A stretch of DNA of 64,000 nt from a virus (IMGVR_UViG_3300028048_000053:98692-162691), one strand, 5' to 3'; shown: positions 6,539 through 20,092, numbered from the stretch's first letter. The notes: generated by a model from the sequence alone, not told the origin. Numbers and translations: made by a program.

Positions 6539-7294
6539 ATGAAAAAAAGTTTTAGACTAGTAATTTGTATAATTGCATTATTTGCTATTATGTTAAATTA
6601 TGCTACTGCAAATTCACCATTTATTCCAACTGACAATTTAAGTTTAGATAATTTAGCTTTTATTAGAGAACTTAAAGAAGCATATCAAGAATTGATTGAT
6701 AGTCAAGAGTATGCGCACACGATGGCGGAATGTGCCCGCGCACTCGGTTATTCAGAAGATTGCGATATTATTACAACAGCTAAGGAAGAATGGCATTCAG
6801 CTCAAGATGAAAGATTATTAAATGCCGAGACCCAACATTATTGGGAAGAAAAATATAAAGAATATCCTTATGCCACATATATTTGGTTATTCTTAACATC
6901 TGAATTAAAGTATAGTAATTATGTTGCTGCTGGCCTTTTAGGTAATATGATGGTAGAAGTTGGGGGATGCACTTTAGATATTCAGTATTGGCTCTATTCT
7001 TATGATGATGCTTATTATTATGGAATTTGCCAATGGAATAAAGATGACTATCCCGACGTAAGAGGAAAAAATTTAATAGAGCAGTTAAATTATTTAGTAG
7101 AAACAATTGAATATGAATTAAATACTTTTGGATTTGCCTATGCCCGCAATTATAAGTATGCTAATTTTTTAGAGCTGGAATCAACAGATGAGACAGCTTT
7201 GATGTTTGCCAAATGTTATGAGCGTTGTGCTGCAAGCACTTATTCTTATAGACAAAAATGTGCTACGATTGCTTATAATTATTTTGTTAATTAA
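6539..7294 (+). CDS. Secreted protein with N-terminal signal peptide. Possible peptidoglycan hydrolase or tail-lysozyme-like protein.
   Basis: MKKSFRLVICIIALFAIMLNYATA signal-like segment. LGNMMVEVGG and CQWN motifs. Complete in the standard code (no TAG). Confidence 0.5.
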   Translation: MKKSFRLVICIIALFAIMLNYATANSPFIPTDNLSLDNLAFIRELKEAYQELIDSQEYAHTMAECARALGYSEDCDIITTAKEEWHSAQDERLLNAETQHYWEEKYKEYPYATYIWLFLTSELKYSNYVAAGLLGNMMVEVGGCTLDIQYWLYSYDDAYYYGICQWNKDDYPDVRGKNLIEQLNYLVETIEYELNTFGFAYARNYKYANFLELESTDETALMFAKCYERCAASTYSYRQKCATIAYNYFVN

Positions 7295-12050: not shown

Positions 12051-12366
12051 AAAATAAATTGAAACCCTATATAGAGATATATAGAAAAAAATCATTTAAA
12101 TTGCGGGAAACCCCTTAGAGCTTTAACAACCAAGTTTAAATAGTAATATTTAAATGGCGAGGGTAATGACTAAGGTATGGTAAAATCGTTAAAGATTGGG
12201 CAATCCGCAGCAAAATTTCGGACAAAAACTACTAATCCATAATATAAAAAATCCGAAAGATGTTCAGAGACTATAATAATGACTTCCTAAATGATGAAGA
12301 GAAGGAAGATGGTATAGTCCAGACTACAACAGAAAAAACTGGCTTAGGAAACTAAGAGTAGTAAAG
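12051..12366 (+). mobile_element. Group I self-splicing intron (316 nt, no internal ORF) interrupting dnaE
   Basis: 5' splice site after U. The internal guide GAAACC at 12061-12066 pairs with the exon end GGUUUU. Conserved elements are P AAUUGCGGGAAA (12098-12110), Q AAUCCGCAGC (12202-12211), R GUUCAGAGACUA (12262-12273) and S AAGAUGGUAUAGUCC (12306-12320). Omega-G lies at 12366. The spliced product gives the conserved GYGFNLSHTLAY junction. Confidence 0.8.
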
Positions 12367-13725
12367 AATTTATCACACACACTTGCGTATTCATTAGTAG
12401 CTCTTCAAGAAATGAATTTAGCTTTTCGATATCCAATCATCTATTGGAATTGCGCTTGTTTGATTGTAAACAGCGGTGGCAATAATGATGAAGAGAATTT
12501 TGATGATGAATCTACAAGTACTGACTATACAAAAATTGCAAAAGCATTAGGCGATACTATCATGGCTGGAATTAAAGTAAGTCTGGTAGATATTAATCGT
12601 TCAGACTTTGGTTTTAAGCCAGATGTTGATAATAACCAAATTCTTTTTGGAATGAAAGCTTTATTAAATGTTAATGATGATGTTGTTAAAGATATAATAG
12701 CTAAACGCCCATATGTTTCAATTAAAGATTTTTATTATAAAGTAAAACCAAAGAAACAAGCTATGATCTCTCTTATTAAGAGCGGCGCTTTTGATAATAT
12801 GATGGAGCGCAAGTTAGCAATGGCTTGGTACATTTGGGAAACTTGTGATAAGAAGAGTCGTTTAACTCTACAGAATTTACCTGGATTAATTCGATATGGT
12901 TTATTACCAGAAGATACTGAAGAAAGAGTAACGGCTAGACGAATTTATGAATTCAATCGGTATCTTAAAGCTGTATGTAAACATAAAGAAAATTCTACTT
13001 GGTATTTCTTAGACGATAGGGCAATAACCTTTTTACAAGAATTGGGATATGATAATTTAATTCAAGAAAATGAATTTCTTGAAATTAAGCCCTGGGATAA
13101 GATTTATCAAGGTTGGATGGATGTTTTTAGAACCTGGATTGCCGCAGATAAAGAAACTATTCTTGATAATTTAAATACTTTAATATTTAAGCAAGAGTGG
13201 GATAAATATGCATCTGGCAATTATTCATCGTGGGAAATGGAAGCCATGTGTTTTTATTATCATGACCATGAGCTAAAGAATATAGACTATCAAAAATATG
13301 GCTTGAGTAATTTCTTTAAACTGCCCACTATTCCAGTAGTAGAAAGAAGTTTTACCAAAGCTGGAAAGGTTATTAATATTTTTGAACTAACTCGTATATG
13401 TGGCACCTGTATTGCAAAGAATAAAAATAAAGGAACGGTATCTTTACTTACTCCGGAAGGAGTTGTAAATGTACGATTTGCTAAGGAATTATTTGCTATG
13501 TTTGATAAACAGCTTTCTGAGGTCCAGGAGGATGGTACCAAGAAGGTTACCGAGCGTAGTTGGTTTAATAGAGGTCAAATGATTATGGTTACGGGTATGC
13601 GGCAAGGCGATGATTTTGTTGTTAAAAAATATGCTTCTACCCCAGGTCATAGATTATATCATATAGACGAAATTATTAATGGAACTGAATTAAGAATGTC
13701 AGTGGAGAGGAATAGCACAGAATGA
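12367..13725 (+). CDS. dnaE: DNA polymerase III alpha (DnaE), exon 2: rest of the fingers, beta-binding region and C-terminal domain
   Basis: In frame 1 from 12367. Begins NLSHTLAYSL... and then IKVSLVDINRSDFGFKPDVDNNQILFGMKAL, which is DnaE-like. Ends with TGA at 13725. Confidence 0.75.
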   Translation, partial: NLSHTLAYSLVALQEMNLAFRYPIIYWNCACLIVNSGGNNDEENFDDESTSTDYTKIAKALGDTIMAGIKVSLVDINRSDFGFKPDVDNNQILFGMKALLNVNDDVVKDIIAKRPYVSIKDFYYKVKPKKQAMISLIKSGAFDNMMERKLAMAWYIWETCDKKSRLTLQNLPGLIRYGLLPEDTEERVTARRIYEFNRYLKAVCKHKENSTWYFLDDRAITFLQELGYDNLIQENEFLEIKPWDKIYQGWMDVFRTWIAADKETILDNLNTLIFKQEWDKYASGNYSSWEMEAMCFYYHDHELKNIDYQKYGLSNFFKLPTIPVVERSFTKAGKVINIFELTRICGTCIAKNKNKGTVSLLTPEGVVNVRFAKELFAMFDKQLSEVQEDGTKKVTERSWFNRGQMIMVTGMRQGDDFVVKKYASTPGHRLYHIDEIINGTELRMSVERNSTE

Positions 13726-14276
13726 GAAAGAATGTTAATGACATAGATGAATGGGTAATATTGGAAGAATTTCCTTCTTATAGTATAAACAGAAAAGGTT
13801 TTGTTAAAAATAACGAAACTGGACATATCAAAATTCCTTCTATGGGAACTAGAGGATATCCTGTGGTGTCCCTTCAAAAAAATAAAAAAACTTATTTAAG
13901 AACAATACATATTTTACTGGGAAGAACCTTTATTTTTAATAACGATCCTATTCATAAAACCTAGATAAATCATATAGATGGAGATAAGGCAAATTATAAT
14001 CTTTCAAATTTAGAATGGGTAACTCCACAAGAAAATAACAATCACGCTAGATGTACTGGTTTATATTTATCAGACGGTGATAAAGCTGTTATACAATTAG
14101 ATCAAAATAATAATATTATTGCCGAATATCGTTCTGCTTCAGAGGCAAGTAGAATTACAGGAATTGGGCGAGCTAATATTTGTAACGTATGTCGTCATTA
14201 TGTTTCTAAAGACAATAGGCATTATTATACAGCAGGAGGTTATAAATGGGAATGGAAAAAAAATATGATGCAATAA
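13722..14276 (+). CDS. HNH homing endonuclease (HNH_3 type with a C-terminal AP2/NUMOD-like DNA-binding region), free-standing
   Basis: EWVILEEFPSYSINRKGFVKN...NHIDGDKANYNLSNLEWVTPQEN. C-terminal GIGRANICNVCR...AGGYKWEW. ATGA overlap with the dnaE stop. One in-frame TAG. Confidence 0.8.
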
Positions 14277-14485: not shown

Positions 14486-14556
14486 ATCAATAAGAAAAAC
14501 TAAATATAGTGGAATGGCCTTTTTGAAAAAAACTATATTTAGTTAGGAGGATATGT

Positions 14557-16761
14557 ATGTTTGTTAAAAAACGTGATGGACAAAAAGTTATTTTTAATAA
14601 ACAAAAAATTGAAGATGCTATAAATAAAGCTTTTCTTGAAGTAGATGGATAGCTTTATGAAACTGATACCGCAAAAGAAATAGCCGATGAAATAGAAAGC
14701 TTCTATCAGTGCCATAAAATGGAGTAGCCAGATGTTGAAAGTATCCAAGATATGGTTGAAAAATATTTAATGTTGTCTGAACGCAAAGATGTTGCAAAAG
14801 CATATATTCGTTATAGATATAAAAAAGAGATTTTGCGTCAAACAAACCAGACCTATAATAGCATCTTAGATTTAGTCGAATTAAATAACCAAGAAATTAA
14901 AGATGAAAACTCAAATAAAAATCCTATTCAAGCCTCTACTTAGCGAGATTATATCGCTGGCGAGGTGAGTAAGGATGTCACACGCAGGATACTTCTTCCT
15001 TCGGTTGTGCAAGAGGCTCATGACAAAGGACAAATCCATTTTCATGATGCAGATTACTTTATTGAGCACATTTTTAATTGTTGTTTAGTAAATCTTGAAG
15101 ATATGCTGCAAAATGGAACCTGTATTAATAAAACTTTAATCGAAAAACCTCATAGCTTTAGAACAGCTTGTACTATTGCTACTCAAATAATCGCCGTCGT
15201 TGCATCTGGACAATATGGCGGACAATCTATTACCTTGTCACATTTAGCTCCTTTTGTTGATGTTTCTCGAAAAAATATCAGGGCTGAAGTGATAAGAGAA
15301 TTATCGAATTTATTAAAAAGAACTCCAGAAGATGACGAGGTAGAGCCCATTGTAAGAGAACGCCTCTTGCAAGAAATAAAAGATGGTGTTCAAACTATGT
15401 AGTATCAGATTAATACTCTTAATACTTCCAATGGCTAGACTCCGTTCGTAACTGTTTATATGTATTTAGGAGAAGTCCAAGACTCTCAAACCAAAAAGGA
15501 TTTGGCACTTATTATTGAAGAAGTGCTTAAGCAACGAATCCAAGGAGTTAAAAATGAAGTTGGAGTTTGGATTACTCCAGCTTTCCCAAAATTAATTTAT
15601 ACTTTAGAAGAAGATAATATTTATGAAGATTCTCCATATTATTATTTGACTGAACTTGCTGCAAAATGTACAGCGAAGAGAATGGTTCCAGATTATATCA
15701 GTGAAAAAATCATGCTCTAGCTAAAAGGGGATGTTTATCCCTGTATGGGATGTAGATCTTTTTTAACGCCAGATCGTTTTACCGATAAACATATAGGAAA
15801 TATAAGCAACGCAAAGAATTATATCGAAGGTTAGCATAAATATTATGGAAGATTTAACTAGGGCGTAGTTACAATAAATCTAGTAGATGTAGCGTGCTCG
15901 GCTAATGATGAAACAGAATTTTGGAAAATTTTAGATTAGAGACTAGAAATCTGCCATCTAGGACTTCAAGTACGTCATAAGAGATTATTAGGAACTGTCT
16001 CAGATATATCTCCTATTCATTGGTAGTACGGCGCTTTAGCCAGACTAAAAAAAGGAGAAACAATTGATAAATTACTGTATAATGGTTATTCTACTATTTC
16101 ATTAGGATATGCTGGATTATGGGAATGTGTTTATAAAATGACCGGTAAAAAATTAACTGAACCAGAAGGTAAAGAATTTGGTTTATAGGTAATGAAAAAA
16201 TTAAATGATGCTTGCGCCAAATGGAAAGCTGAAGAAAATATAGATTATTCAATTTATGGCACTCCAATTGAATCAACAACCTATAAATTTGCAAAATGCT
16301 TATAGAAACAGTTTGGTATTATACCAGGAGTAACCGATAAACAGTATATCACAAATAGTTATCACATCCATGTGACAGAACCAATTGATGCTTTCTCTAA
16401 AATTGCATTAGAGGCTGAATTTCAAGCTTTAAGTCCAGGAGGCGCAATTACCTATATAGAAGTTCCAAACATGTAGAATAATATTCCTGCTGTTTTAGAG
16501 GTTATGAAATTTATTTATAACCATATAATTTATGCTGAACTAAACACTAAATCAGATTACTGCCAAGTTTGTGGATATGATGGAGAAATAAAAATTGTAA
16601 CAGACGAGGAAACTCAGCGCCTAGTTTGGGAATGTCCTAATTGCGGCAACCGCGATCAAAGTAAGATGAACGTAGCAAGACGAACCTGTGGATATATAGG
16701 ATCCAACTTCTGGAACTAGGGTCGTACCGAAGAGATTGCGGAACGGGTATTGCATTTATGA
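14557..16761 (+). CDS. nrdD: Anaerobic ribonucleoside-triphosphate reductase NrdD (class III RNR) with an N-terminal ATP-cone, and about 14 in-frame TAG codons
   Basis: ATP-cone MFVKKRDGQKVIFNKQKI. C-terminal zinc ribbon CQVCGYDGE...CPNCGN and glycyl-radical motif RRTCGYIGS. All fragments in frame 1. RBS AGGAGG. Confidence 0.85.
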
Positions 16762-17453
16762 AAACATTTTATATTTATCGCCATACAAATCTAATAAATG
16801 GTAAAGTATATATAGGACAAACTTGTCAAAAGCCTGAATATCGCTGGGGTAAAGATGGCAATGGATATAAAAATTCTCCCCATTTTTACGCGGCAATTCA
16901 AGAATATGGATGGGAAAATTTTAAACATGAAATTCTTTATAGTGGTTTAACCCAAAAAGAAGCTAACGATAAAGAACAAGAACTGATACAATTATTTGAT
17001 GCTACAAATCCCGCCCAAGGTTATAACTCTGAATCAGGTGGTAAAAATAAAATTCCTAATCAATATACTAGAGAAAAATAGTCCTAGGCTGCCCTTAATA
17101 GACCTATCGTTTCCGAAGAGACAAAAAGAAAATTATCTAAAGTATCTTTAGGAATTTAGAGAAGTAAAGAAACAAAAGAGAAAATGCGAATTGCAGCCGT
17201 GAGGAGAGAACAAAAACGTTCTACCAAGTCTAGCCCAGTTATATGTATAAATACTGGTCAATATTTCTCTTCATGTCGTAAGGCTGCTGATTGGTGTGGA
17301 TTAGCCGGGGTAAGTGGTATCTGTTTGGTTTGTAAAGGAAAAAAACAGAAAACCGCAGGTGCTCACCCCATAACAAAAGAGAAGTTGTTTTGGAGATATG
17401 CCACACAAGAGGAGATACGATAGCATGAGATATGCAACAATCAAAAAAAATGA
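16758..17453 (+). CDS. GIY-YIG homing endonuclease with NUMOD-like C-terminal repeats
   Basis: YIYRHTNLINGKVYIGQT and following GIY-YIG core residues. C-terminal repeated ETKRKLSKVSLG / ETKEKMRIAAV. Fragments in frame 0. The 3' end depends on TAG read-through and overlaps the nrdG start. Confidence 0.7.
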
Positions 17454-17916
17454 TATTGCAAATGGTGAAGGTATTGGAGTGTCTTTTTTTGTATAGGGAT
17501 GCCCAATAAGATGTTTTAATTGCTTTAATAAAGAAACATGGGATTTTAATGGCGGAAAAGAATTTACTATTGACACATTAACTGAAATTATTGAAGCGAT
17601 AAAAGCAAATGGAATAAATCGCCATTTTAGCGTATTAGGTGGAGAACCCTTATGCCAAGAAAATTTATTTTTAACAGCTTTAGTAATCAAAACCGTTCGA
17701 GAAACATATCCAAATATAAAAATTTATGTGTGGACTGGTTATACCGAAGAACAGCTTCAAAAGCGTACTGATAGTAAATTATCTTATATATTTGAAAATA
17801 TAGATTATTTAATAGCTGGGCCTTATATTGACAGCGAACGCGATATAACGCTCCCCATGTGCGGCAGCCGCAATCAAAAAATCATAAAAATGCATGAGGA
17901 AGATAAAAATGGGTGA
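17425..17916 (+). CDS. nrdG: Anaerobic RNR activating enzyme NrdG (radical SAM)
   Basis: GCPIRCFNCFN cluster (CxxxCxxC). One in-frame TAG. Frame 1. Ends with TGA at 17916. Confidence 0.8.
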
Positions 17917-18680: not shown

Positions 18681-18943
18681 TGAGTAAGTATGTTGTTAGC
18701 GATACGACCGTTTATAGAGTGGGCACCGTGGCAGAAGTAGAGCAGCTGCACGATGAGCTTTTAGCTGACCCTTCATTTACCCTTGGGGCTTTTAGCTATA
18801 AAACCAAGTATGTAAAGGCCAAGGGCGAAATAATTGATGAATATCAGCTTGTTTCTGCGAAGAAGATTTTCAATGAGGAAAAAGAACCAACAAATCCAGT
18901 AGAGATAACATATACTGTGAAAGAATTCGAGGCGAGTTTTTAA
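18680..18943 (+). CDS. Hypothetical protein (87 aa)
   Basis: ORF with ATGA-type overlaps on both sides. Confidence 0.4.
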   Translation: MSKYVVSDTTVYRVGTVAEVEQLHDELLADPSFTLGAFSYKTKYVKAKGEIIDEYQLVSAKKIFNEEKEPTNPVEITYTVKEFEASF

Positions 18944-19176
18944 TGAAATTTGAAAGAATAACAAAATATCCCGACGCAGTTTTGCCGCAGCGTGGCACAG
19001 CGGGGAGCGCAGGCTATGATTTTTGCGTAGCTGAAGATACTATGTGCTATGTTAATGAAGTAACATATGTTCCAACAGGAATTAAGGCTCAAATCGATGA
19101 CGGTTATTATCTACAACTGTCGTTGAGAAGTTCTGCTCCTAAGAAATATGGAGTTATGCTAGCAAATGGAATCGGT
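18943..19176 (+). CDS. dut: dUTPase exon 1 (motifs 1-2 and the start of motif 3)
   Basis: RGTAGSAGYDF (motif 1) through ...LANGIG. Ends at U 19176. Confidence 0.8.
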
Positions 19177-19418
19177 AGACTATAAACATAACTATGCCGA
19201 TTTAAAACTCCGGAATTAAGCGGGAAGGCTACGTCGAAAGATATGCTAATCCGAACCGAAGGCTAATCAAAGATTAGTCAGGGGCAACGCATAGATGGTG
19301 AAAAGATATAATCCATCCAAGAGGCCGGAGCTATTGCAAAAGCAATAGAAAAGATATGCTGAACTTATAGGAAACTATAAGAACTATTGGATAAAAAGCC
19401 GATAGGATAACAAATTTG
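19177..19418 (+). mobile_element. Probable small group I intron (242 nt) interrupting dut
   Basis: Exon 1 ends in U. The internal guide GCCGAUU (19196-19202) pairs with the exon end AAUCGGU including the U-G wobble. P-, Q- and S-like elements AAUUAAGCGGGAAGG, AAUCCGAACC and AAGAUAUAAUCC are present. Terminal G at 19418. Splicing joins GIG|VVDSDY and restores dUTPase motif 3. Confidence 0.65.
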
Positions 19419-19613
19419 GTAGTTGATTCTGATTACTACAATAACCCAGATAATGAAGGACATATTATGTTTGCTATCTATCCTTTTAAGAATACTATTA
19501 CACTAAAAAAGGGAGACCGTATCGGACAAGGAGTATTTCTTCCATATGCTATCACTGACTCAGATACTGCGGCCGGCGCGCGCACTGGTGGTTTCGGCTC
19601 TACATCATGAGAC
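19419..19613 (+). CDS. dut: dUTPase exon 2 (motifs 3-5)
   Basis: VVDSDYY, GDRIGQ and RTGGFGSTS motifs. Confidence 0.8.
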
Positions 19614-20092
19614 TTTTAGCACTAGACCAAAGTAGCCGCATTACCGGCTACGCGGTGTTTATAGATGATAAGCTTGAAACATATGGAAAAATAGATTTAA
19701 AAGATGACGATATAGGTATTCGCTTAAACTCTCTCCGCGACCAAATCGCCCTGCTAATTATGAATTATGGAATTGATGAAGTCGCTTTTGAAGATATTTA
19801 CATGGACGGATAGAAAATAAACAATGTTTCTACTTTTAAAATATTAGCCGAAGTGTTCGGTGTATGCTATGAATTGTTTACTGATTTAAACATTTCAAAT
19901 ACAGCAGTATTAGCTGGAACGTGGAAATCTACTCTTGGAATAAAAGGAAAAACTCGTCCAGAGCAGAAGAAGGCCGCACAAGAATGGGTTAAGGCAAACT
20001 ACAATGTTGCTCCAACACAAGATGAAGTAGATGCTATTTGTATAGGCGCCCATATTCTTAAAACTAAACAAAAAACCTTTAATTGGCAATAA
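19607..20092 (+). CDS. RuvC-family Holliday junction resolvase
   Basis: MRLLALDQSSRITGYAV N-terminal catalytic motif. One in-frame TAG. Frame 2. Confidence 0.7.

What the first reader, a model, noticed from the sequence alone, without database searches (positions are those of the whole stretch)
19177..19418. Second, very small (242 nt) group I-like intron splitting the dUTPase gene
dUTPase motif 3 is split: exon 1 ends ...LANGIG at U19176 and exon 2 (19419) starts VVDSDYY. The intervening sequence has:
- internal guide GCCGAUU complementary to the exon end AAUCGGU with a terminal U-G wobble
- P-, Q- and S-like elements (AAUUAAGCGGGAAGG, AAUCCGAACC, AAGAUAUAAUCC)
- a 3' terminal G

Splicing yields a complete five-motif dUTPase. 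If confirmed, this phage carries at least two ORF-less group I introns in early genes. That fits the nearby free-standing HNH and GIY-YIG homing-endonuclease genes.
Basis: partly seen in the sequence, partly recalled or inferred. Interest (0 to 1): 0.65.

Follow-up and report, generated by a model that had tools for sequence, protein, structure and literature searches.

The report
Self-splicing intron splitting phage dUTPase gene
The 242-base insert in this rumen phage's dUTPase gene is very probably a compact, ORF-less group I self-splicing intron from a large, already known family of Firmicutes-phage introns, so it is an ordinary kind of element sitting in a host gene where I found no earlier report of one.

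Summary
Window 19177-19418 (242 nt) interrupts a dUTPase gene between G78 and V79 of motif 3. Removing it gives a 141-aa dUTPase that aligns without a gap to uninterrupted homologues.

The insert has a complete group I layout:
- P1 of 8 bp, with U19176 paired to G19196 as a wobble.
- P10 of 7 bp, directly adjoining P1 on one guide sequence (0 of 20,000 shuffles match this).
- P3, P4, P5/P5a, P6/P6a, P7 (with a bulge and an invariant G-C pair), P7.1, P8, P9 and P9.1.
- A terminal G at 19418.

A covariance model built from 12 related sequences, without the window, hits 19202-19417 at 205 bits (E=3.5e-55). It also hits the JCL1032 terminase intron, which a later paper cites as proven to be a group I intron. 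Across 119 family members, 94% of cells pair and 48 of 51 pairs show compensatory changes, including P7.

The intron is present in all six assemblies compared, out of 13 cattle-rumen contigs that carry the exon-1 ORF. It is absent from the syntenic dut gene in nine related phage contigs.

The real J8/7-P7' is 19349-19360.

Rfam RF00028 scores only 26.5 bits, but it also misses the checked relatives.

Splicing was not tested. This is a new member of a known kind, in a gene (dut) where I found no earlier report.

The phage also reads TAG as a sense codon.

The parts
18943..19176 (+). dUTPase exon 1 (78 codons, ends ...LANGIG). The last 8 nt (19169-19176, GAAUCGGU) form the 5' strand of P1, and U19176 is the 5' splice-site U.
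19177..19418 (+). Group I intron, 242 nt, with no ORF. TAA or TGA stops occur in all three frames.
19189..19203 (+). Internal guide sequence. UAACUAU (19189-19195) pairs with exon 2 to form P10. GCCGAUUU (19196-19203) pairs with exon 1 to form P1, with G19196 opposite U19176.
   Evidence: 15 contiguous bp; 0 of 20,000 shuffles. In relatives the guide sequence changes with the host exon.
19208..19213 (+). P3 5' strand CUCCGG, which pairs with 19325-19330. There is no P2; only AAAA (19204-19207) separates P1 from P3.
19221..19253 (+). P4 (19221-19224 with 19250-19253), J4/5 AA, P5 (19227-19229 with 19245-19247), P5a (19233-19235 with 19240-19242) closed by a GAAA loop, and J5/4 AA.
   Evidence: P4 and P5 pairs covary.
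19256..19282 (+). P6 (CC 19256-19257 with GG 19281-19282) and P6a (19261-19268 with 19272-19279).
   Evidence: P6a covaries. The 2-bp P6 is invariant in the subfamily and only 64% paired across the wider family.
19287..19293 (+). P7 5' strand A(C)GCAUA with C19288 bulged. It pairs with 19355-19360. The G19289-C19359 pair is invariant and is the presumed guanosine-binding pair.
19294..19317 (+). P7.1 hairpin (GAUGG 19294-19298 with CCAUC 19313-19317) and its loop UGAAAAGAUAUAAU.
   Evidence: helix 7: 98.9% paired, 5 of 5 pairs covary
19325..19330 (+). P3 3' strand CCGGAG.
   Evidence: Natural variants are C19211U (a U.G wobble) and G19327A (a C.A mismatch).
19331..19348 (+). P8 hairpin CUAUUGC-AAAA-GCAAUAG.
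19349..19360 (+). J8/7 (AAAAGA) and the P7 3' strand UAUGCU (19355-19360).
19364..19405 (+). P9 (19364-19370 with 19375-19381, GAAA loop) and P9.1 (19384-19390 with 19399-19405, conserved loop AUAAAAAG).
19406..19418 (+). Conserved 3' tail GAUAACAAAUUUG, ending in the terminal G (omega G) at 19418.
19419..19610 (+). dUTPase exon 2 (VVDSDYY...GGFGSTS, stop TGA 19608-19610). Its first 7 nt GUAGUUG form P10.

Best explanation
Window 19177-19418 is a compact, ORF-less group I intron of subgroup IA type. It has a P7.1 extension and no P2. It is inserted in the phage dUTPase gene between the codons for G78 and V79 of motif 3.

Proposed mechanism, inferred from what is established for group I introns rather than shown here:
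1. In the pre-mRNA, the internal guide sequence (19189-19203) pairs with the end of exon 1 (P1, with a U19176.G19196 wobble) and with the start of exon 2 (P10). This holds the two exons side by side.
2. The P4-P6 and P3-P9 domains fold around the P3/P7 pseudoknot.
3. An external guanosine, bound at the G19289-C19359 pair of P7, attacks the bond after U19176.
4. The terminal G19418 then takes that site, and the free 3'-OH of exon 1 attacks the bond after G19418.
5. The exons are joined into an mRNA for a normal 141-aa trimeric-type dUTPase.

The element belongs to a large family of introns found in phages and prophages of Bacillota (terminase, tape-measure and other genes). This copy has a guide sequence adapted to the dut site.

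What is shown and what is inferred:
- Shown: the split gene, the paired elements and their covariation in relatives, family membership by covariance model, and intron-plus and intron-minus alleles.
- Inferred: catalysis itself, guanosine binding at that pair, and how the intron reached dut.
For: Split gene and restored protein:
- Exon frames differ, and all frames of the insert are closed.
- The spliced protein matches Pfam dUTPase at 2e-17.
- It aligns as a single piece over 98-99% of its length with uninterrupted phage dUTPases.
- It aligns without a gap across LANGIG|VVDSDYYNNPD with seven close homologues.

Structure:
- Single-sequence MFE is -68.3 kcal/mol, z = -4.8, and shows P1, P3, P5, P5a, P6a, P7.1, P8, P9 and P9.1.
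- RNAalifold on 13 relatives gives the same helices, with 31 of 44 pairs compensatory.
- With P7 added: 99.5% of cells pair, 33 of 50 pairs are compensatory, 0 of 500 shuffles reach this, and slid controls pair in 32-42% of cells.
- On 119 members: 94% of cells pair and 48 of 51 pairs are compensatory. P7 covaries and keeps an invariant G-C pair.
- P1 plus P10 give 15 contiguous bp (0 of 20,000 shuffles). In relatives the guide sequence tracks each host exon.

Family membership:
- Model R1, built without the window, hits 19202-19417 at 205.2 bits, E=3.5e-55, full length, with no non-standard pair.
- R1 also hits the JCL1032 terL intron at 109.9 bits. That gene is annotated as a two-piece join. 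[quoted passage not shown]
- The same boundary rule applied to JCL1032 restores an open terL frame and the Walker A motif GRKNG|KT.
- Rfam RF00028 gives a weak, correctly ordered match at 26.5 bits, E=1.4e-4.

Population evidence:
- The exon-1 ORF lies on 13 rumen contigs. Five variants at 96-97% identity all keep the intron, with 1-3 substitutions in 242 nt against 5-12 in the 426 nt of exons.
- Nine related contigs with the same orf87-dut-ruvC order have an uninterrupted dut.
Against: - No experimental or transcript evidence of splicing was available.
- Rfam RF00028 does not reach its gathering score (26.5 against 50) and finds nothing in the whole-window gathering scan. The same model also fails at E<=1e-3 on the JCL1032 intron and nine other family copies, so this looks like a weakness of the model.
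- Two natural variants carry G19327A, which turns a P3 C-G pair into a C.A mismatch with no compensating change.
- P6 is only 2 bp and is poorly supported in the wider family (64% paired).
- There is no P2.
- Alignment A3 was fitted to the model, which inflates its pairing counts. A1 was a plain MAFFT alignment.
- No other intron-bearing dut gene was found, so the insertion site has no independent replicate outside this phage species.
Confidence: 0.9

Rival explanations
1. The insert derives from a group I intron but can no longer splice. On this reading dut is a pseudogene, or is expressed as two fragments.
For: - Splicing was not tested.
- Two variants carry an uncompensated C.A mismatch in P3.
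- The intron has no P2 and only a minimal P6.
- The Rfam score is low.
Against: - Every core helix is intact in the window copy. The family model finds no non-standard pair in it and scores it fifth of 119 matches.
- P1, P10, the U.G wobble and the terminal G are all in place and fit this particular gene.
- The intron varies less than the surrounding exons among 96-97% identical variants. The exon changes keep the frame open.
- The two halves together keep all the dUTPase motifs. Neither half alone could form the active site; that point rests on the known trimeric dUTPase architecture, not on a test here.
Confidence: 0.07
2. The split is an artefact: a chimeric assembly or a mis-joined contig placed an unrelated intron-like fragment inside dut.
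For: The window comes from a metagenome assembly.
Against: - The identical exon-1 ORF is on 13 contigs from several samples and assemblers.
- Six of these were compared. All have the same 242-nt insert at the same position, at 96-100% identity.
- The guide sequence is complementary to both flanking exons. A chance insertion would not produce that.
Confidence: 0.01
3. The gap is bridged by another recoding mechanism, such as translational bypassing of the T4 gene 60 kind, a group II intron, or an intein.
For: The phage already uses a non-standard code in which TAG is a sense codon.
Against: - 242 nt with a conserved group I fold is not the roughly 50-nt hop of gene 60.
- No group II intron match appeared in Rfam.
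- The insert has stops in all frames, so it cannot encode an intein.
- Covariation shows selection on RNA pairing.
Confidence: 0.01

Closest known systems
[quoted passage not shown] Related introns occur in Bacillota phages and prophages: Staphylococcus 6ec-like, Clostridioides phiCD211-like, Bacillus Eyuki-like and Listeria LIS04.
   Same: - Both are hit full length by the same covariance model, R1: window 205 bits, JCL1032 110 bits.
- Both have the same helix order: P3-P4-P5-P6-P7-P7.1-P3'-P8-P7'-P9-P9.1.
- Both share the conserved P9.1 loop AUAAAAAG and the GAUAAC tail.
- Both are compact and ORF-less (226 nt against 242 nt).
- Both use a P1/P10 guide sequence placed just upstream of P3.
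- The 3' halves are 72% identical by blastn.
   Different: - The host gene differs: dut (nucleotide metabolism) rather than terL.
- The guide sequence differs.
- The window copy belongs to a sub-branch marked by GAACCGAAGG...AGUCAGGGGCA in P6/P6a. It is 82% identical to its nearest relative found, L137.
- It sits in a TAG-recoded rumen phage of about 172 kb.
Phage T4 td, nrdB and nrdD (sunY) group I introns, and the Bacillus phage beta22 thymidylate synthase and SPbeta bnrdE/bnrdF introns. This comparison rests on my own knowledge and was not tested here.
   Same: - They are group I introns of subgroup IA.
- They interrupt phage genes of deoxynucleotide metabolism.
- They are inserted in sequence that encodes conserved catalytic motifs.
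   Different: - The host genes differ.
- Most of those introns carry a homing-endonuclease ORF and are much longer.
- They are not detectably the same sequence family. I did not test this with R1.
The window's own first intron, in the DnaE-like polymerase gene (12051-12366)
   Same: - It is ORF-less and small (316 nt).
- It has P1 with a U.G wobble, a 6-bp P10 and a terminal G.
- It restores a conserved motif, GYGF|NLSH.
   Different: - It belongs to a different lineage. It has the canonical R and S sequences GUUCAGAGACUA and GGUAUAGUCC.
- It scores 49 bits with RF00028 and is not hit by the family model R1.
Rfam RF00028 (Intron_gpI)
   Same: The match runs over the whole model in the right order, covering P3, P4, P5, P6, P8, J8/7 and P9.
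   Different: - The score is 26.5 bits, below the gathering score of 50.
- The model has no room for P7.1 and treats it as a 40-nt insertion.
- It also misses the other family members tested.

Membership tests
Group I intron | P1 helix between the end of the 5' exon and an internal guide sequence, with a U.G wobble at the 5' splice site | tested here: met
   GAAUCGGU (19169-19176) pairs with GCCGAUUU (19196-19203), with U19176 opposite G19196. In relatives the guide sequence changes with the host exon.
Group I intron | Terminal G (omega G) at the 3' end, and P10 pairing of the guide sequence with the 3' exon | tested here: met
   The terminal G is G19418. P10 is UAACUAU (19189-19195) with GUAGUUG (19419-25), directly adjoining P1. 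The 15 bp in total were reached by 0 of 20,000 shuffles.
Group I intron | Conserved core in the order P3-P4-P5-P6-P7-P3'-P8-P7'-P9, with P3 and P7 forming a pseudoknot | tested here: met
   RNAalifold recovers the nested helices. P7 was added as a pseudoknot. On the 13-sequence alignment 99.5% of cells pair and 33 of 50 pairs are compensatory. On the 119-sequence alignment the figures are 94% and 48 of 51.
Group I intron | P7 with a bulged nucleotide next to a conserved G-C pair (the guanosine-binding site) | tested here: met
   A19287-U19360, then bulged C19288, then G19289-C19359. The G-C pair is present in 88 of 91 informative sequences. The flanking pairs switch A-U to G-C in concert. Guanosine binding itself was not testable.
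Group I intron | Reaches the curated Rfam RF00028 gathering score | tested here: not met
   The score is 26.5 bits against a threshold of 50. This criterion belongs to the model rather than to the class. The JCL1032 intron and nine other family copies also fail at E<=1e-3.
Group I intron | Self-splicing, dependent on guanosine and Mg2+, that ligates the exons | not testable with these tools
   This needs an in vitro splicing assay or RNA data. The predicted ligated product is a complete dUTPase.
Subgroup IA (IA2-like) phage introns | Extra P7.1 (and P7.2) helices between the P7 5' strand and the P3 3' strand | tested here: inconclusive
   P7.1 is present and covaries (19294-19317, helix 7). 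This copy has no P7.2, although many relatives carry an inner hairpin at that place. PMC2504315 assigns related Bacillus prophage introns to IA1 or IA2. I made no direct comparison with the Twort or T4 td introns.
Bacillota-phage intron family modelled by R1 (includes the JCL1032 terL intron) | Full-length, significant match to a covariance model built without the query | tested here: met
   205.2 bits, E=3.5e-55, model positions 1-210. The JCL1032 intron scores 109.9 bits.
Mobile group I intron (homing) | A homing-endonuclease gene encoded within the intron | tested here: not met
   There is no ORF, and TAA or TGA stops occur in all three frames. The HNH and GIY-YIG genes are free-standing, about 4.9 kb and 1.7 kb upstream.
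Trimeric dUTPase (Pfam PF00692), the host gene | Continuous match to the family once the insert is removed | tested here: met
   The spliced protein scores 63.6 bits (2e-17) over residues 13-123. It aligns without a gap to uninterrupted homologues, including the conserved motifs GVVDSDY and RTGGFGST.

The most novel reading that the evidence does not exclude
The ORF-less dut intron may be mobilised in trans, or kept in place, by one of the free-standing homing endonucleases encoded a few kb upstream: GIY-YIG at 16758-17453 or HNH at 13722-14276. The enzyme would cut intron-less dut alleles of co-infecting relatives at the motif-3 site, while the intron interrupts that site and protects its own genome. 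That would be 'collaborative homing' of the kind described for T3/T7-like phages, and it would be the first case in a dUTPase gene and in a TAG-recoded phage. My evidence neither supports nor excludes it. Intron-less syntenic alleles exist. The endonuclease gene at the nrdD/nrdG junction differs between otherwise 96% identical variants that all keep the intron.
Probability: 0.08. Interest if true: 0.55.

Novelty: new member of a known kind. Interest (0 to 1): 0.3.

Why it matters
- **Annotation.** Gene callers split this dUTPase into an 80-aa ORF and a 47-64-aa ORF in all six public assemblies examined. Recognising the intron restores a normal enzyme.
- **Host-gene range.** It adds dut to the list of phage nucleotide-metabolism genes colonised by group I introns. 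The insertion is again at an active-site motif, which fits the view that these introns settle in the most conserved coding sequence.
- **Detection gap.** Rfam's single group I model misses a family with well over a hundred copies in viral contigs and many Bacillota genomes. Counts of phage introns based on RF00028 are therefore too low. The alignments made here could seed a better model.
- **Biology.** None of this changes what is understood about group I intron biology.

Tried and rejected
- **Rfam at gathering threshold over the whole window:** nothing found. Only the permissive scans found the two introns.
rejected as P7', because it covaries as the P7.1 hairpin.
- **Another intron-bearing dut gene:** none found.
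  - The 160 best dUTPase relatives in viral and metagenome contigs are all uninterrupted or cut by contig ends.
  - A pattern built from the guide sequence gave 0 hits in viral contigs.
  - tblastn with dUTPase against about 240 family loci found only distant, uninterrupted dut genes.
- **Literature:** searches for a dUTPase group I intron found no report. The library holds only open-access papers.
- **Close relatives among deposited phage genomes:** none beyond the 70-nt intron 3' end.
- **Suppressor tRNA for TAG:** none in the window.
- **Automatic P1/P10 search in more distant family members:** often failed, or gave implausible short helices where an ORF or a P2 lies between P1 and P3. Only the compact members are informative.
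- **Not done:** I did not compare the intron with the Twort or T4 td ribozymes, so the IA2 label stays provisional.

Full report
**1. The observation.**

Window 18943-19176 encodes the N-terminal 78 residues of a dUTPase and ends ...LANGIG at U19176. The frame then runs into TAA at 19183. Window 19419-19610 encodes VVDSDYYNNPDNEGH...RTGGFGSTS in another frame.

The 242 nt between them have TAA or TGA stops in all three frames. This matters because the phage reads TAG as a sense codon (see section 7). Joining the two parts gives a 141-aa protein that matches Pfam dUTPase at 2e-17, while the halves score 6e-9 and 2e-4.

By tblastn the joined protein aligns as one piece over 98-99% of its length with uninterrupted dUTPases of many phages. 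It aligns without a gap across the junction with the closest homologues found, for example LANGIGVIDSDYYNNPD in L005. The split is therefore real and lies inside motif 3.

**2. Anatomy of the insert.**

The end of exon 1 (GAAUCGGU, 19169-19176) pairs with GCCGAUUU (19196-19203). U19176 lies opposite G19196. The seven bases just upstream of that guide (UAACUAU, 19189-19195) pair with the first seven bases of exon 2 (GUAGUUG). So one continuous 15-nt guide sequence aligns both exons as P1 and P10. None of 20,000 shuffles of the first 34 intron bases reached 15 bp.

Downstream come the following elements (coordinates):
- P3: 19208-13 with 19325-30
- P4: 19221-24 with 19250-53
- P5: 19227-29 with 19245-47
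- P5a, with a GAAA loop
- P6 and P6a: 19256-82
- P7: A19287 and G19289-A19293 with U19355-U19360, with C19288 bulged
- P7.1: 19294-19317
- P8: 19331-48
- J8/7: AAAAGA
- P9, with a GAAA loop: 19364-81
- P9.1: 19384-19405
- the tail GAUAACAAAUUUG, ending in G19418

The single sequence folds to -68.3 kcal/mol (z = -4.8; 0 of 200 shuffles fold as well). That fold shows most of these helices.

**3. Relatives and covariation.**

blastn showed that the 3' 70 nt are 80-91% identical to sequences in many phages of Bacillus, Staphylococcus, Clostridium, Clostridioides, Listeria and Lactobacillus. One of them is the terminase gene of phage JCL1032, whose CDS is annotated as a two-piece join. A 23-nt pattern from P9.1 hit at least 120 viral contigs. 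A P6 pattern hit at least 120 Bacillota genomes.

Thirteen members of the closest sub-branch were aligned with MAFFT. RNAalifold, with no guidance, gave P3, P4, P5, P6, P6a, P7.1, P8, P9 and P9.1, and 31 of its 44 pairs were compensatory. With the P7 pseudoknot added, the results were:
- 99.5% of cells form standard pairs.
- 33 of 50 pairs have changes on both sides.
- No shuffle reaches these values.
- Sliding the partners by 1-3 columns drops pairing to 32-42%.

I then built a covariance model from the 12 other sequences only. It finds window 19202-19417 at 205.2 bits, E=3.5e-55, over the full model length and with no non-standard pair.

Across 100 sources the same model found 119 matches, including the JCL1032 terL intron at 109.9 bits. 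On that alignment 94% of cells pair and 48 of 51 pairs are compensatory. In P7 the outer pair is A-U in 49 sequences and G-C in 38. The fourth pair is A-U in 58 and G-C in 28. The pair next to the bulge is G-C in 88 of 91. That alignment was fitted to the model, so its counts lean towards the structure. The MAFFT-based result does not have that bias.

**4. What it is.**

The helix order, the P3/P7 pseudoknot, the bulge plus invariant G-C in P7, the U.G wobble at the 5' splice site, the terminal G and the adjoining P1/P10 guide are the defining features of a group I intron. The P7.1 insertion between P7 and P3' is the mark of subgroup IA. Many relatives carry a further hairpin inside it, as in IA2. 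PMC2504315 places related Bacillus prophage introns in IA1 or IA2. I did not compare the intron directly with Twort or T4 td, so I leave the subgroup as 'IA, IA2-like'.

[quoted passage not shown] Applying my boundary rule to JCL1032 removes 226 nt (record 2471-2696). That restores an open terL frame and the Walker A motif GRKNG|KT, which supports the rule used for the window.

**5. Why Rfam nearly missed it.**

RF00028 gives 26.5 bits (E=1.4e-4 in an 801-nt search) with the elements in the right order. This is below its threshold of 50, and the match is absent from the whole-window gathering scan. In a control search at E<=1e-3, the same model missed the JCL1032 intron and nine other family copies. 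The one group I match it found was a different intron in L180. The low score therefore reflects the model and does not count against the sequence.

**6. Population evidence.**

The exon-1 ORF is recorded on 13 contigs, all from ENA assemblies that include cattle rumen samples. One of them, ERZ27252073 k141_3465 (171,985 bp), is identical to the window over 4.2 kb and is probably its source.

Five variants at 96-97% identity all carry the intron at the same place. They have one to three substitutions in 242 nt, against five to twelve in the 426 nt of exons. The intron changes are:
- C19211U, which turns a P3 C-G pair into a U.G wobble (three contigs).
- G19327A, which turns the same pair into a C.A mismatch (two contigs). 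This one is unexplained.
- T19408G together with A19412C, both in the 3' tail (one contig).

Nine related contigs with 57-76% identical dUTPase and the same orf87-dut-ruvC order have a continuous dut gene. So intron-plus and intron-minus alleles both exist, and the split is not an assembly artefact.

**7. Context.**

The window contains a second ORF-less group I intron at 12051-12366 in a DnaE-like polymerase gene. It has P1 GGUUUU/GAAACC and P10 UAAAUU/AAUUUA. Splicing gives a continuous 1185-aa protein joined GYGF|NLSH. RF00028 scores it at 49.0 bits. The family model does not hit it, so the two introns have separate origins.

HNH (13722-14276; Pfam HNH_3, 1.6e-7) and GIY-YIG (16758-17453; 8.7e-7) genes are free-standing. 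They are complete only if TAG is read as a sense codon.

Reading TAG as sense raises the total length of ORFs of at least 150 aa from 5,616 to 21,555 residues. nrdD has eleven in-frame TAG codons and ruvC has one. In relative L005 a TAG aligns with the conserved Gln of GDRIGQG. No tRNA gene lies in the window.

**8. Mechanism, novelty and verdict.**

The most likely mechanism is ordinary group I self-splicing of the dut pre-mRNA, as set out under Best explanation. The catalytic steps are inferred from established knowledge of the class.

How the intron reached dut is unknown. It carries no endonuclease gene. Help in trans from a neighbouring endonuclease is possible but untested.

I found no report of a group I intron in a dUTPase gene in the papers I could search. 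I also found no second example in about 160 dUTPase loci and about 240 family loci. This is therefore a new member of a well-known kind, in a host gene where I found no earlier report. Interest is modest.

Noticed in passing
whole window; e.g. nrdD 14527-16759, ruvC TAG at 19811-19813, HNH TAG at 13962, GIY-YIG 16758-17453: The phage reads TAG as a sense codon, probably Gln. ORFs of at least 150 aa total 5,616 residues under the standard code and 21,555 with TAG as sense. nrdD has 11 in-frame TAG codons. In relative L005 a TAG aligns with the conserved Gln of dUTPase motif GDRIGQG. No tRNA gene, suppressor or otherwise, lies in this window.
   Followed up: partly
window 12051-12366: This is the 'first' intron: 316 nt, ORF-less, group I, in a DnaE-like Pol III alpha gene. 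It has P1 GGUUUU/GAAACC and P10 UAAAUU/AAUUUA, and splicing gives an 1185-aa ORF joined GYGF|NLSH. RF00028 scores 49.0 bits, just under the threshold of 50. It is unrelated to the dut intron's family, since model R1 does not hit it.
   Followed up: partly
window 19300-19313 versus 19348-19361: The P7.1 loop (GAAAAGAUAUAAUC) nearly repeats J8/7 plus the start of P7' (GAAAAGAUAUGCUG). The repeat is conserved in the sub-branch. Whether it reflects an internal duplication or a tertiary contact is unknown.
   Followed up: no
window 19211 and 19327 (P3 pair), in L285, L287-L290: Natural variants of the same phage change one P3 pair from C-G to U.G (three contigs) or to a C.A mismatch (two contigs). 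None shows the fully compensated U-A pair.
   Followed up: partly
L285 1-229 versus L286 1-511 (corresponds to window ~16950-17450): In otherwise 96% identical rumen variants, the ORF upstream of the nrdG-like radical-SAM gene has a faint LAGLIDADG match, where the window has GIY-YIG. This points to turnover of free-standing homing-endonuclease genes at that spot.
   Followed up: no
L192, about 6830-7080 (IMGVR_UViG_3300045988 contig, in a tRNA array): A close family member appears to interrupt a class II tRNA gene. Its 3' exon reads GGGACTTAAAATCC...GGTTCGAATCC, and its P1 is AUACACAGU/GCUGUGUAU. It sits among about eleven phage tRNA genes.
   Followed up: no
L180 3087-3314 (- strand) and 2560-2790: Two different group I introns lie about 500 nt apart in one phage gene. 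One scores 95 bits with RF00028. RF00028 does not report the other, which belongs to the family studied here.
   Followed up: no
L001 (JCL1032, record 2471-2696): Under the same P1/terminal-G rule, the JCL1032 terL intron is 226 nt and splits the terminase Walker A motif (GRKNG|KT).
   Followed up: yes
window 17425-17916 and 14527-16759: The window encodes an anaerobic ribonucleotide reductase (nrdD, with the C-terminal RTCGYIG glycyl-radical motif). The following gene (nrdG) corresponds to the ORF at 483-974 of L285/L286, which matches Pfam Radical_SAM and Fer4_12, consistent with an NrdD activase and an anaerobic (rumen) host.
   Followed up: no
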